This document shows, piece after piece, positions 15,042 through 44,324 of a stretch of 64,000 bases of DNA (its first letter is position 1; every line of letters begins with the position of its first letter). Source of the stretch: a candidate division FCPU426 bacterium (GTDB lineage: Bacteria > Oederibacteriota > Muellerivitia > Muellerivitales > Muellerivitaceae); assembly GCA_963847625.1 (NCBI GenBank), contig CAWKAR010000023.1:25290-89289 (forward strand). Reading direction: 5' to 3'. The translations under genes and the position numbers were made by a program. Under the pieces are notes generated by a model that worked only from the letters and a program-made list of their open reading frames with translations, did no database searches and was not told the DNA's origin.

Positions 15042-15413
15042 ATGAAATTTATTATCAAGGTGCTGTCCTAATTTGAAATATACCTTATTTATTGCTGTTT
15101 TGACGGGCTTATATATTGAAGGTGTTGTCAGTCTAAACAGCTTTTTCGACGGTTAGGTGAACAGTATAATGTTGTCACGATAGATATATTATACACCCCC
15201 CTCTCCCCCCTCTCCCCCTACCCTCCCCACCCCCAGGGGAGGGGGGTGTTATCACAAAATAACACTTTATTTTATTTAACCATCTATCCTTAGTGGGTAA
15301 ATTGTCATCCCTCATTGACATAAAACGGTATGAGAGTAAATTATAGGGTTTAAATTTTAACCCGTATTGCCTTGATTCTTTCGAGGTTAAGGTTAAAATT
15401 AATTTAACATCCC

Positions 15414-15468
15414 GTTGGCTCTTACGAGTCAGCGCCCCCCTAGGTACGTAACGGTCCTGGGGTTTTTT
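15414..15468 (+). ncRNA. Structured leader or small RNA upstream of the NYN nuclease
   Basis: Hairpin GTTGGCTC-TTAC-GAGTCAGC, then CCCTAGG...CCTGGGG plus T6; candidate promoter TTGATT-N16-TAAAAT at 15372-15399. Confidence 0.45.
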
Positions 15469-15485
15469 ATTTATGGAGCAAATTT

Positions 15486-16148
15486 ATGGCAAGAGTTACT
15501 GGTTTTATAGATGGGTTTAATCTTTATCATTCAATTGATGATCAAATAATTCCCCTCCCTCATTTCACCCAATACAAATGGCTTAATGTTATCAAACTTA
15601 TTAAAAGATTCATGCCATCAGAAGATACTTTAACTGATGTTTATTTTTTTTCTGCTATTACAGAGTGGGAAGTTGAAAGAGCAAGAAGACATAAAATATA
15701 TTTACAAGCTTTGCAAAATAGTGGCGTCAAACTAATTCTCGGAAAATTTAAAAAGAAAATCAAACGTTGTAAAAATTGCAATTTTGAAAGTGTATTTCCA
15801 GTCGAGAAAAAGACTGATGTTAATATAGCTGTAAGAATTATGGGTGCCGCTTTTAAAAATAGATTTGATAAATGTTATTTGGTTTCTGGTGACACCGACC
15901 TTGCCCCCGTTTTAGCAGAAATAAAACTTTTATTTTCAGACAAAATAATTGGTGTTATTAGTCCAATGGGAAGAGAGAATGGGGCTTTAAAACGCATAGC
16001 TCATATTCATGGGGCAATTTCGGAAGAGATTTTAAAAGATTCGATGTTTGAAAATCCATTAATTATTCCAGAAAAACCTCAACTTGAATGTCCCATTGAA
16101 TGGACTTGGAATCCTTCACCACCCGCCAACCCCGAAGTTAAATCTTAA
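15486..16148 (+). CDS. NYN (LabA/DUF88, PIN-like) putative ribonuclease with CxxC insert
   Basis: FIDGFN, EKKTDV, VSGDTDLAP acidic motifs; RCKNC. Confidence 0.88.
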   Translation: MARVTGFIDGFNLYHSIDDQIIPLPHFTQYKWLNVIKLIKRFMPSEDTLTDVYFFSAITEWEVERARRHKIYLQALQNSGVKLILGKFKKKIKRCKNCNFESVFPVEKKTDVNIAVRIMGAAFKNRFDKCYLVSGDTDLAPVLAEIKLLFSDKIIGVISPMGRENGALKRIAHIHGAISEEILKDSMFENPLIIPEKPQLECPIEWTWNPSPPANPEVKS

Positions 16149-16150
16149 AA

Positions 16151-16441
16151 TTATTTATTTTTATCTTGGCTAATTAAATAAGCTTTAACTGCCGTTTCTG
16201 GACTTTTAACTGGTGACAATTCTAAAACAGTTACAAATTCTGTGTGTCCAGGTTTATCTTCAAATCCCCACCCATAACACTTTTTAGCCGTTGGATGTCC
16301 TGTTACTTCAAAAATTTCAACTTCACCTTCCCACATAGTTTGTCCTTCGTGTTTTAAATAAACGGGAACGGTCTTAATGTGTTTAGCTTTGCAATGGTAG
16401 CCTTTACCGATTGCGTCTTGAATTGCTTCTATATATTCCAC
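16151..16441 (-). CDS. Hypothetical protein coupled to the IS1 transposase
   Basis: 96-aa ORF overlapping the transposase stop, GGAGG-like RBS context. Confidence 0.65.
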   Translation of the reverse strand: MEYIEAIQDAIGKGYHCKAKHIKTVPVYLKHEGQTMWEGEVEIFEVTGHPTAKKCYGWGFEDKPGHTEFVTVLELSPVKSPETAVKAYLISQDKNK

Positions 16442-17268
16442 TCGCCTTCAGCCCTTTCCAGTAGATCAAACAACGTCCAGGGGGCTTTTATCACACCAGC
16501 GGCCACAGCAGGAGCCGTTTTGATCGAAGAATGAATTTTAACGAAATTATAATAAGCGAAATGTAAGGCAACTGCCGCTTTAAAATTTTCCAGCTTTTTG
16601 CTGAAAGCATTTGTTAATCTTGCCAACCTACGGCAATGCATCCTTATCGTCAGGTTTTGCCGCTCGATATACGATGTGGAAATATAACCCGGATTTCCAC
16701 TTATCACTTTCGGAGTTAAGGAAGTTAATTCTGGAGGATTGTACTTACCCTTAAAATCCACAAGAGACGAGTAGGTTTTTACTATTTGTCCATAATCGGC
16801 ATTTCGGCCAAAGGCTATATCTATGGCCGCTAAAAAACCTTTATAAGCGTCCGTGTGAATCCTTGGTTTGTTTTTTAAACGTTTGGATAAATCAACAGCT
16901 AATTCAATAGCCGTTTCAGGAGACCTAGAACCGACTTTGTAATTAGGAACCAAACGAGTGTCTTTATCCAAAGTCATAAAAGTATAAATCTCGCCCTCCC
17001 CTGTTTCGGCGGCTTGAATCTTTTTACGCCCGTAAGCTGGTTTCTTTTTAATGAATCCATAAATCTCATCAATCTGGATTTTGTCACAGGTTAGATCGAC
17101 CATTTCCCTATCCGCTATCATGTCACAAGCCATTCCCACACGAAGGCCAAGGCGCATAATCGTATCCCGATGAACACCAGTTTGACGCTCCAATGAGCGA
17201 ATACTAGAATCTTCCACTAAGCCGGATAGAAGCCTTAATTTTGTTTGGTCATCCAGGTTGTTAGCCAT
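16429..17268 (-). CDS. IS1-family DDE transposase (single ORF)
   Basis: HTH SIRSLERQTGVHRDTI; DDE motifs QIDEIYGF, IHTDAY, STSYIERQN; RLTNAFSKK...YNF. Confidence 0.88.
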   Translation of the reverse strand: MANNLDDQTKLRLLSGLVEDSSIRSLERQTGVHRDTIMRLGLRVGMACDMIADREMVDLTCDKIQIDEIYGFIKKKPAYGRKKIQAAETGEGEIYTFMTLDKDTRLVPNYKVGSRSPETAIELAVDLSKRLKNKPRIHTDAYKGFLAAIDIAFGRNADYGQIVKTYSSLVDFKGKYNPPELTSLTPKVISGNPGYISTSYIERQNLTIRMHCRRLARLTNAFSKKLENFKAAVALHFAYYNFVKIHSSIKTAPAVAAGVIKAPWTLFDLLERAEGEWNI

Positions 17269-17303
17269 ACATTTTCTCCTTGCATTTCTTACTTACATGT
17301 ATT

Positions 17304-17348
17304 ATTGTACGCACATTAATTCTTATGTCAATAAAAAACGTACGTACA
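17304..17348. promoter_or_regulatory. Transposase promoter with palindromic operators
   Basis: Minus-strand TTGACA-N16-TACAAT (17304-17331); TGTACGCACA 17306-17315 and CGTACGTACA 17339-17348; third copy TGTGCGCACA at 17534-17543. Confidence 0.55.
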
Positions 17349-17360
17349 AAAAATAAAGCT

Positions 17361-17522
17361 ATGACCAAAGGTCGGAAAAAACTCCCCGATAATATAAAGA
17401 AGGCAAAACGCCTTTATTTGCGGTTAAATGAGGAAACTAAAGCGAAATATGAGCAAGCGGCTCAAAAGGCGGGAATAGGCCTATCTGAATGGATTAGAAA
17501 GACGCTTGACAAAAATTCTTGA
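17361..17522 (+). CDS. Small ribbon-helix-helix (CopG-like) DNA-binding protein
   Basis: RLYLRLNEETKAKYEQAAQKAGIGLSEWIRKTLD pattern. Confidence 0.7.
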   Translation: MTKGRKKLPDNIKKAKRLYLRLNEETKAKYEQAAQKAGIGLSEWIRKTLDKNS

Positions 17523-17548
17523 CAAGTATATTCTGTGCGCACAAGAAA

Positions 17549-17646
17549 TGGCGGAGGACGACGGCATCGAATCCGAATCGTGTCTCTAGCACGATGTACC
17601 CAGGATGTACAGCCTGAGCCCACAGCCTCTCTGTGGTTCATCCTCC
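17549..17646 (-). tRNA. Non-canonical tRNA-like RNA (allo-tRNA-like 9/3 fold, 98 nt, anticodon loop CUGUACAU, GCCA end)
   Basis: GGAGGATGA/TCGTCCTCC acceptor, CCACAG/CTGTGG D-stem, CTCAGG/CCTGGG anticodon stem, ATCGTG/CACGAT variable arm, CGG-ATTCGATG-CCG T-arm; G-U pairs form only on the minus strand. Confidence 0.7.
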
Positions 17647-17661
17647 GAGTTTATCAAGGTA

Positions 17662-17765
17662 GTAGGGGTGGGGAGCTTTAAAACTCCCCTTGCGAGCCAC
17701 CGCAATTTTGTTTCCCGTATTCAACCCACGGGACGAACCGAGTTTGGACCTCGGCCAACCCCCAC
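17662..17765 (-). ncRNA. Second irregular tRNA-like cloverleaf (104 nt, no encoded CCA)
   Basis: GTGGGGGT/ACCCCTAC closing stem with arms CCGAG/CTCGG, TCCCGT/ACGGGA, TTGCG/CGCAA and GGGGAGT/GCTCCCC. Confidence 0.55.
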
Positions 17766-17774
17766 AAGTACATT

Positions 17775-17808
17775 AAGCGGAATGTGTTTACGCACATTCC
17801 GCTTTTTT
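17775..17808 (+). terminator. Strong intrinsic terminator (plus-strand U-tract)
   Basis: Perfect 12-bp stem AAGCGGAATGTG/CACATTCCGCTT followed by TTTT. Confidence 0.75.
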
Positions 17809-18235
17809 ATTTTTCAACTATCCCTAAATTTTTATAAATTGTAGTGTGTGATCCTTTTCCTTTTTTTGTTCTTTTAATTCCATTTGGGTCTTTTTCTTTA
17901 GCCCATCTTTTTAAAGTTCCGGCGATGGTTCCCATCCTCACTTCATGTCCATTTTTTAAAAGTGCATCATGAACGTTTATCTTAGTAATCCTCACAATAC
18001 CCATATTTTTAACGGTTTTTTTAATGATTTCCTTGATCTCTCCGTGTTCTCTTCCGTTTTTTGGGTGATTTGCGCCCTTTTTTAAAAAAACAAATTCAGG
18101 CATCGGAATAATAAAATCTTTTCTGTCCTTATCAAAAAGTTCATTTAGATTTTGAATTTTGGAGTTTAGTTCTTGAACGTTATATTTTTGGTATAGATCA
18201 TTCAGTAGTTTGGAATAATCGTCTTTAAACTTCAT
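17807..18235 (-). CDS. Hypothetical basic protein, possible C-terminal winged helix
   Basis: AAGGA RBS before ATG 18235; ITKINVHDAL...GTIAGTLKRW resembles a wHTH. Confidence 0.5.
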   Translation of the reverse strand: MKFKDDYSKLLNDLYQKYNVQELNSKIQNLNELFDKDRKDFIIPMPEFVFLKKGANHPKNGREHGEIKEIIKKTVKNMGIVRITKINVHDALLKNGHEVRMGTIAGTLKRWAKEKDPNGIKRTKKGKGSHTTIYKNLGIVEK

Positions 18236-18773
18236 GTTACACATCCTTCGAGTGATTAAACTAATTTTACTATTATGTTCAGAGATGATACAAGCCAAAA
18301 ATGTAATTAGTGCGATTTATTTACCCAATGGCTTACACAATGGTTTTTGTATGCCTTTCTCTTGTACAATCTCTTGTCATACAAAAGCAAAGCGTGAATT
18401 ATCTAATTTCTCTTTGTTTTCAATGGTTTTAGATGATTTTTGTCCTACAAAGCATTGAGTATTTTGCATGTATTTAGGTATGAAAAAGGAGGGGTTGAAC
18501 GGCTCTAAAGGAAAAACGTTAATACAATTACCGCAAAGAGCAAATTCATATTTTACTAATGAGGCTGATTTAAAGGGAATTTTTAGGTTTAACGATATTC
18601 ATTAGAGTGAATTAGGACAGGACCATTATCAAGATGCCAGGTATTTGAAAACGGCTTATTTATGTGGGTTTTGACGGCTTTATTGACTGAAGGTGCCGAC
18701 GGTTGAAGGGAGTATTCCGGCCGCTTGGAAATGATCTTTTAGGCGAGACGGGTTAATGGTGCATCAAGAACGA

Positions 18774-43981: not shown

Positions 43982-44087
43982 ACGCCTACTCCCGAGGCCG
44001 AGGACTTCAAAGGAAGGAAAGGGAGGAAAACCGGAAGGAAGGTTTTTTCTCCGCTTCTTATTCCCGAAGAAGCCGTCGAAAATTTAT

Positions 44088-44225
44088 CTCAAGGCCGGTC
44101 TCCTGGCTATGGGGCAACCTTCCGGGCCTTCCCGTCTATTAAGACAGTGGCTTACGGAAGAAAACTAGGCCCCTTACAGTGGCGGGTCCGCATCGGTTTT
44201 TCACCGATTTCCCGAGCACCTTGAG
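44088..44225 (-). ncRNA. Cobalamin riboswitch
   Basis: Minus strand CTCAAGG...GGGAAATCGGTGAAAAACCGATGCGGACCCGCCACTGT...GCCACTG...GGGAAGGC...AGCCAGGAGACC...CCTTGAG. Confidence 0.92.
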
Positions 44226-44324
44226 TTATGGAATGTAATTACTCTTCCTCCTGGGAAAAGTCAATTAATAAAATAAATCGAAGATCCAAGATAAATTTTT
44301 ATCATCTATATCGAAGAAACGTTT

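What the first reader, a model, noticed from the sequence alone, without database searches (positions are those of the whole stretch)
17662..17765. Second irregular cloverleaf 15 nt upstream, forming a bicistronic tRNA-like array
An 8-bp closing stem and four arms appear in tRNA order, with a 9-nt middle loop GGGTTGAAT, a 7-bp last arm and no CCA. G-U pairs again favour the minus strand. Its sequence is unrelated to the first cloverleaf although the architecture is similar, which suggests selection on structure (inference).
Basis: partly seen in the sequence, partly recalled or inferred. Interest (0 to 1): 0.7.

Follow-up and report, generated by a model that had tools for sequence, protein, structure and literature searches.

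The report
Transposon's tRNA-shaped partner RNA
This is a real four-armed RNA fold, but not a working tRNA; it sits beside an odd tRNA-like gene in a small RNA cassette that many related jumping genes carry and that seems not to have been described.

Summary
The fold is real and on the minus strand: z -4.7, 0 of 1000 shuffles as stable, six G-U pairs. It fails every tRNA test run here (no T-loop consensus, no CCA, 14-bp branch, no model hit). No whole-length homolog was found. It lies in a 3.57-kb IS1-family element, in a recurring module: opposite-strand terminator, optional partner RNA, tRNA-like gene with UAC-A in its anticodon loop, convergent RHH gene. That tRNA-like gene occurs in 43 of 162 related elements. 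In nine elements the partner slot holds an apparently undescribed RNA with two or three UCCAA loops and covarying stems. Our RNA shares one such hairpin but not the family's junction. Best reading (0.45): a non-translated partner RNA showing tRNA-like loops to a trans factor, made with the miscoding tRNA-like neighbour and held down by an antisense transcript. Main rival (0.25): a remodelled, dead irregular tRNA. The closest known case is the irregular-tRNA polycistrons of Mukai 2017, whose table lacks these loops. No expression data were available.

The parts
17662..17765 (-). The finding: 104-nt five-way junction RNA (c2); closing stem 17765-17758 with 17669-17662
17736..17756 (-). Arm 1; 7-nt loop GUCCAAA (17749-17743), the loop type of the UCCAA slot family; similar to the host tRNA-Trp anticodon loop
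17713..17733 (-). Arm 2; loop GGUUGAA (7 nt) or GGGUUGAAU (9 nt; UGA in the anticodon position if read from the 3' side)
   Evidence: anticodon reading is inference
17690..17705 (-). Arm 3, after a 7-nt A-rich linker (17712-17706)
17670..17689 (-). Arm 4, stacked on the closing stem; loop UUUUAAAG, no T-loop consensus
17549..17646 (-). First cloverleaf (c1): allo-tRNA-like 9/3 body, long variable arm, 8-nt anticodon loop CUGUACAU, G73, encoded CCA
17775..17810 (+). Intrinsic terminator-like hairpin with U-tract on the plus (antisense) strand; its loop region resembles the operator motif
17506..17534 (+). Promoter-like site (10 of 12) pointing antisense into both cloverleaves
   Evidence: consensus match only
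17534..17543 (.). Operator-like palindrome, also at 17306-17315 and 17339-17348; probable RHH sites
   Evidence: binding inferred
17361..17522 (+). Ribbon-helix-helix protein, 53 aa, convergent with the RNA array
   Evidence: NikA-like, E 2.4e-6
16429..17268 (-). IS1-family single-ORF transposase, 279 aa
16151..16441 (-). Conserved 96-aa protein of unknown function behind the transposase (123 of 161 loci)
15486..16148 (+). NYN-domain RNase-like cargo gene
   Evidence: PADLOC HEC-09, E 2.3e-47
17807..18238 (-). 143-aa cargo ORF ending at the terminator hairpin; its mRNA may run on into the RNA array
   Evidence: read-through inferred
15059..18624 (.). Whole element: 15-bp terminal inverted repeats and an 8-bp target duplication (15051-15058, 18625-18632); 37.5% GC against 53% in the flanks

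Best explanation
c2 is a non-translated partner RNA in a transposon-borne RNA cassette. A minus-strand transcript runs through c2 and c1 and is cut at the 5' end of c1, probably by RNase P (inferred). c1 is a tRNA-like RNA with serine-type identity and a valine anticodon in an enlarged loop, so it would misread or shift frame at GUA/GUG codons (inferred). A plus-strand transcript from the RHH side covers both RNAs and ends at the terminator just past c2, so it can silence them; RHH represses these promoters (layout shown, action inferred). c2 holds out U-N-N-A-A loops, one a tRNA-Trp-like UCCAA loop, as binding sites for a trans factor such as a tRNA-cutting or tRNA-binding protein, acting as decoy or sponge (inferred).
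For: Fold and strand. Module: UAC-A tRNA-like gene in 43 of 162 non-redundant elements; of 46 listed, 39 have a convergent RHH-like ORF and 36 an opposite-strand terminator; in two elements RHH and RNA are flipped together. The slot holds a UCCAA RNA in 9 elements, three found by the model and not used to build it, with 10 of 16 pairs changed on both sides and 2-3 UCCAA motifs each. c2 shares a 13-nt hairpin core with one member; such hairpins occur 15 times in 8.86 Mb of host sequence, about 2 in 10,000 per 104 nt, or about 2 in 1000 by my estimate given four loops. An invariant loop in diverged elements points to a trans partner, since a cis-antisense strand changes along with it (inference). 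Mukai 2017 (PMC5389517) showed that missense allo-tRNAs arrest E. coli growth and that some lie near toxin-antitoxin genes.
Against: The slot-family model does not recognise c2: only arm 1, 5.6 bits, E 2.4; the conserved junction is missing; pairwise scores against 9 members are not significant (best 38 of 500 shuffles). No homolog of c2, so no covariation of its own. My attention to UCCAA began with c2, so that statistic is partly after the fact. Most elements leave the slot empty, so the partner is dispensable. The strand of the UCCAA family is unsettled: 7 G-U cells on the tRNA strand against 11 A-C cells that are G-U on the other. No partner protein was identified; the NYN cargo did not form a shared cluster across these elements.
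Confidence: 0.45

Rival explanations
1. c2 is a remodelled or dead irregular tRNA of class II type, a second gene of a Mukai-type polycistron, with no job of its own.
For: Outline as in allo-tRNAs: 8-bp stem, long first arm, A-rich linker before the third arm. By eye, the eight bases after the closing strand equal positions 8-15 of 2 of 43 host tRNAs, and starting at 17763 gives a 6+6 branch followed by A and a one-off CCA. Two elements have a second tRNA-like gene in this slot (L013, L091). Only 8 of 51 sister tRNA-like genes encode NCCA, so a missing CCA is usual here.
Against: No signal with a host class II profile (261 of 977 shuffles as high; c1 0 of 950), best-of-43 alignment (57 of 300), or covariance models R2 and R3 (single hairpin only). 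All five stems are intact with no mismatch, which decay would not leave.
Confidence: 0.25
2. c2 works only in cis: its loops start the pairing with the antisense RNA (as recalled for ColE1 RNA I and RNA II), or it is a leader that folds away and protects c1 during processing.
For: Antisense promoter and terminator bracket both RNAs; the antisense strand folds into matching hairpins; 7-nt U-containing loops suit kissing (own knowledge).
Against: Cis pairing needs no fixed loop sequence, yet UCCAA is kept in all 9 slot RNAs and in c2.
Confidence: 0.15
3. The working RNA is the plus strand, which shows UUGGA loops, for example as a CsrA-type sponge.
For: Clear promoter and terminator on that strand; 11 family cells pair better there.
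Against: c2 folds 11.6 kcal/mol better on the minus strand and has six G-U pairs there. CsrA was found in 1 of 5 genomes searched and not in the host, which is 94% complete.
Confidence: 0.08
4. c2 is itself charged and used in translation.
For: Cloverleaf order of arms; a possible UGA anticodon in the 9-nt loop.
Against: Branch of 14 or more pairs in the predicted fold, no T-loop consensus, no CCA while 42 of 43 host tRNAs encode it; ARAGORN does not call it on the minus strand even at half threshold.
Confidence: 0.04

Closest known systems
Allo-tRNAs and polycistrons of irregular tRNAs (tRNA0/1/2), Mukai et al. 2017, PMC5389517 (read: main text parts 1-3 of 5, supplement parts 1 and 24 of 26, two motif searches)
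   Same: Arrays of irregular tRNA-shaped RNAs near mobile or toxin-antitoxin genes; 8-9 bp acceptor stems, long first arm; some members inactive in translation; c1 fits the 9/3 body.
   Different: c2 lacks the 12-bp branch, T-loop and D tetraloop. Their table has no TCCAAA, no CTGTACAT, and 'UAC' only as a codon. The RHH, antisense and IS1 layout is not in the parts I read.
Type VIII (RNA-RNA) toxin-antitoxin pairs such as ryeA-sdsR (passages of PMC9424990) and CreTA (recalled)
   Same: Two RNAs on opposite strands of one locus; CreT acts on translation through tRNA supply (recalled).
   Different: Here the proposed toxin is a tRNA-like RNA and the antisense RNA comes from an RHH locus; no toxicity is shown.
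ColE1 RNA I (recalled)
   Same: About 100-nt cloverleaf-like RNA with 7-nt loops on a mobile element, facing an antisense transcript.
   Different: No replication origin here; four arms; fixed UCCAA loop in the slot family.
+1 frameshift suppressor tRNAs with 8-nt anticodon loops (recalled; listing of PMC8464047 only)
   Same: Applies to c1 and its family: enlarged loop with a variable base 5' of UAC.
   Different: Those are laboratory mutants; these are natural and borne on transposons. c2 itself is not of this kind.
IS1-family elements with passengers (ISMhu11 type, recalled)
   Same: Single-ORF DDE transposase, short inverted repeats, 8-bp duplication, cargo genes.
   Different: RNA cargo of this kind was not found in my paper searches.

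Membership tests
Allo-tRNA (Mukai 2017) | 12-bp acceptor branch as 8/4 or 9/3 | tested here: not met
   8 + 6 (or 8 + 8) pairs in the fold; 6/6 only if the 5' end is moved to 17763
Allo-tRNA (Mukai 2017) | Long D-stem with tetraloop | tested here: not met
   stem is long (7) but the loop is 7 nt
Allo-tRNA (Mukai 2017) | Long variable arm | tested here: met
   arm 3, 17705-17690
Allo-tRNA (Mukai 2017) | G73 or U73 discriminator | tested here: inconclusive
   U, C or A depending on where the stem is taken to end
tRNA in general | T-loop consensus and score with tRNA models | tested here: not met
   c1 also missed Rfam and ARAGORN, so only searches have a positive control
tRNA in general | Aminoacylation and decoding | not testable with these tools
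   needs bench work
UCCAA slot RNA (defined here) | Position between antisense terminator and UAC-A tRNA-like gene | tested here: met
UCCAA slot RNA (defined here) | Two or three UCCAA loops | tested here: inconclusive
   one exact loop; two other arms carry UUGAA and UUUAA; 17% of loops in shuffles hold U-N-N-A-A
UCCAA slot RNA (defined here) | Conserved junction and score with model R1 | tested here: not met
Type VIII toxin-antitoxin | Sense and antisense RNAs from one locus | tested here: inconclusive
   signals predicted; expression not seen
Type VIII toxin-antitoxin | Toxicity rescued by the antisense RNA | not testable with these tools
   needs bench work
Any Rfam family | Gathering score | tested here: not met
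   c2; all 9 UCCAA loci: only tRNA hits elsewhere in them

The most novel reading that the evidence does not exclude
A widespread group of IS1-family transposons carries an RNA-only addiction or abortive-infection cassette: a natural frameshifting or miscoding tRNA aimed at valine codons, built on at least two unrelated tRNA bodies, silenced by the antisense tail of the RHH transcript, plus a new class of junction RNAs (c2 and the UCCAA family) that display tRNA loops as decoys.
Probability: 0.25. Interest if true: 0.85.

Novelty: new variant of a known kind. Interest (0 to 1): 0.62.

Why it matters
Mukai 2017 left open what irregular tRNA arrays near mobile genes do. Here is a bounded 3.6-kb element with promoter, operator, antisense and terminator signals, and dozens of relatives, so the question can be tested in one construct. 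Natural tRNAs with enlarged loops would be of use for four-base decoding. The UCCAA RNA is a structured motif missing from Rfam. These RNAs are invisible to ARAGORN at default settings in this window.

Tried and rejected
ARAGORN default: 0 genes in the window; relaxed: only poor folds in other registers. Rfam: nothing at c2. Homolog searches for c2 found none: nhmmer in 80 loci and the own genome; 41 related genomes, one 23-nt hit to the end of c1; plasmids and phages; two viral pattern scans, chance hits only. Metagenome loci L081-L160 were screened by pattern, loop scan and models R1/R2, not by c2 itself. A likeness to host tRNA-Pro (z 3.7) vanished after allowing for 43 comparisons. The idea that the long UCCAA forms are four-armed like c2 was dropped: the consensus fold has two arms and an internal loop; only L315 folds four-armed alone. 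A +1 fusion of transposase and the 96-aa ORF was rejected: they overlap mostly in the -1 frame. A fixed UUGGA target near the transposase start was not found. CsrA sponge: see rivals. Searches of 93 and 301 further genomes gave one new element. Sequencing runs: none was listed. The careful tree did not finish; the quick tree was used. Ten paper searches found no description of this module; the library lacks most subscription papers.

Full report
Observation. The minus strand of 17662-17765 (c2) folds as an 8-bp stem closing four arms, -51.2 kcal/mol, z -4.67; the plus strand is weaker, z -2.86. None of 1000 shuffles is as stable, 10 of 1000 give a closed four-hairpin fold, and six pairs are G-U on the minus strand. 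Only one other, irregular, junction of this kind turned up on both strands of the window. The sequence is unrelated to the neighbouring cloverleaf c1.

It is not a tRNA by the tests run. ARAGORN and Rfam do not call it, but they also miss c1. With models that do see c1, c2 fails: host class II profile, 261 of 977 shuffles as high against 0 of 950 for c1; host class II covariance model, c1 13.2 bits (E 0.04), c2 one hairpin only; a model of long-arm sister RNAs, one hairpin only. The last arm has no T-loop consensus, the branch is 14 or more pairs, and CCA is absent although 42 of 43 host tRNAs encode it. By-eye likenesses to class II tRNAs exist but did not survive controls.

Setting. c2 lies in a 3566-bp element, 15059-18624, with inverted ends, an 8-bp duplication and 37.5% GC. 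It codes an IS1-family transposase, an RHH protein, a conserved 96-aa protein, an NYN protein and a 143-aa cargo ORF. On the plus strand a promoter-like site at 17506-17534 and a terminator at 17775-17810 bracket both cloverleaves. An operator-like palindrome lies at that promoter and at the divergent transposase and RHH promoters.

The module recurs. I fetched 160 loci of transposase relatives (best 80 of 302 and best 80 of 462) and about 40 more. A tRNA-like gene with UAC-A in the anticodon loop lies upstream in 43 of 162 non-redundant loci with enough flank. That search required TACA, so its invariance there is by construction; a T-arm search without that demand also found mostly TACA genes at this place, and model R2 added five more, all with TACA. 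The pattern missed c1 itself and at least three others. Bodies differ: short class I types and long-arm allo-tRNA types such as c1. The base two before UAC is U in 41 of 51, the base just before is variable, which fits an enlarged loop; some can also be folded as 7-nt loops with an N-U-A anticodon and C37, so stop or tyrosine reading is an alternative. Of 46 listed genes, 39 face a convergent RHH-like ORF and 36 have an opposite-strand terminator upstream by a crude script, which mis-called at least one (L317) and missed some.

The slot of c2. Between terminator and tRNA-like gene most elements have under 35 nt. Nine hold a 70-94 nt junction RNA with two or three UCCAA motifs, two hold a second tRNA-like gene, and the window holds c2. 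The UCCAA RNA model, built on six, found three new members and in 151 genomes hit only two places, both beside this transposase. Its stems covary, 10 of 16 pairs with both sides changed, far above slid controls, though relatedness inflates this. It is not in Rfam. On the quick transposase tree it is scattered (7 changes, 6 forced), which suggests cassette exchange or repeated loss; the window's transposase has a long branch, in line with c2 having no close relative.

How c2 relates. The model does not recognise c2 beyond arm 1 and the family junction is absent, so I do not file it as a member. It shares the slot, the strand of the tRNA-like gene, and a hairpin whose 13-nt core equals the last arm of L315. 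Such loops are rare in host DNA, 15 in 8.86 Mb. The loop is like the host tRNA-Trp anticodon loop, and UCCAA also occurs in the tRNA-Gly(UCC) loop and in variant T-loops, so which tRNA part is mimicked is open. Arms 2 and 4 carry UUGAA and UUUAA; 17% of loops in shuffles hold U-N-N-A-A, so three of four is suggestive only.

Mechanism. Shown: folds, layout, recurrence. Inferred: transcription of both strands, processing, RHH control, miscoding by c1 and binding of a factor by c2. I put 0.45 on c2 being a partner RNA that presents tRNA-like loops in trans, 0.25 on a remodelled dead tRNA, 0.15 on a cis role in antisense pairing or processing, 0.08 on a plus-strand RNA, 0.04 on translation. Against the best reading: no homolog, no partner protein, an empty slot in most elements, and mixed strand evidence in the family.

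What is known. Mukai 2017 (PMC5389517; main text parts 1-3 of 5; supplement parts 1 and 24 of 26 and motif searches) describes allo-tRNAs and polycistrons of irregular tRNAs near toxin-antitoxin and transposon genes; its figures are not held, so a drawn locus like this one cannot be excluded. A review repeats this (passages, PMC7609411). HEC-09 gave no phage defence when tested (passages, 10.1101/2024.01.29.577857). Earlier scan notes know this IS1 group and its 96-aa protein but not the RNAs. Ten paper searches found no account of the module. ColE1 RNA I, CreTA, ISMhu11 and suppressor tRNAs are recalled.

Verdict. A real structure; a new variant of the irregular-tRNA arrays of mobile elements; interest 0.62, mostly because it opens an undescribed and testable RNA cassette.

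Noticed in passing
L005:2789-2860, L084:704-775, L085:1555-1624, L020:2565-2657, L087:334-427, L015:2556-2626, L304:1044-1113, L315:1069-1161, L317:2686-2757(-): Undescribed junction RNA with two or three UCCAA loops, covarying stems and a fixed junction; found only beside this transposase.
   Followed up: yes
window 17549-17646 and about 50 loci: Family of tRNA-like genes with UAC-A in an often enlarged anticodon loop on different tRNA bodies, usually tail to tail with an RHH gene; candidates for natural frameshift or miscoding tRNAs.
   Followed up: partly
L001, L002, L022, L026, L027, L045, L081, about 60-150 nt upstream of the terminator hairpin: A further short motif, a small GC-rich hairpin closed by GCGC and followed by an A-rich run, recurs upstream of the hairpin.
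   Followed up: no
window 15084-15124 and 18655-18695: The DNA just outside the right end resembles the inside of the left end (78% over 41 nt): the element may have landed in a relic of a related end.
   Followed up: no
L058:812-915: Second tRNA-like gene downstream of the UAC-A gene, with a CUUCCAA loop and a very long variable region.
   Followed up: no
L084, L085, L015, L304, L315, L317: Six of the nine tRNA-like genes beside a UCCAA RNA have C in place of U55 in the T-loop.
   Followed up: no
L009:2745-2830: Two GUCCAAA hairpins upstream of the terminator hairpin, without the family junction and with no folding signal (z -0.03).
   Followed up: partly
transposase genes of 45 elements with and 123 without the tRNA-like gene: GUA makes up 6.3% of valine codons in elements with the RNA and 10.5% in those without; GC content and kinship were not controlled.
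   Followed up: partly
window 15410-15465: Two GC-rich hairpins and a T-run just before the NYN gene, on the plus strand.
   Followed up: no
G000:C27:140715-141539 (L162): Second, distant IS1-family transposase in the host genome (42% identity), without the RNA module by models R1 and R2.
   Followed up: partly
window 44076-44238: Cobalamin riboswitch, minus strand.
   Followed up: no
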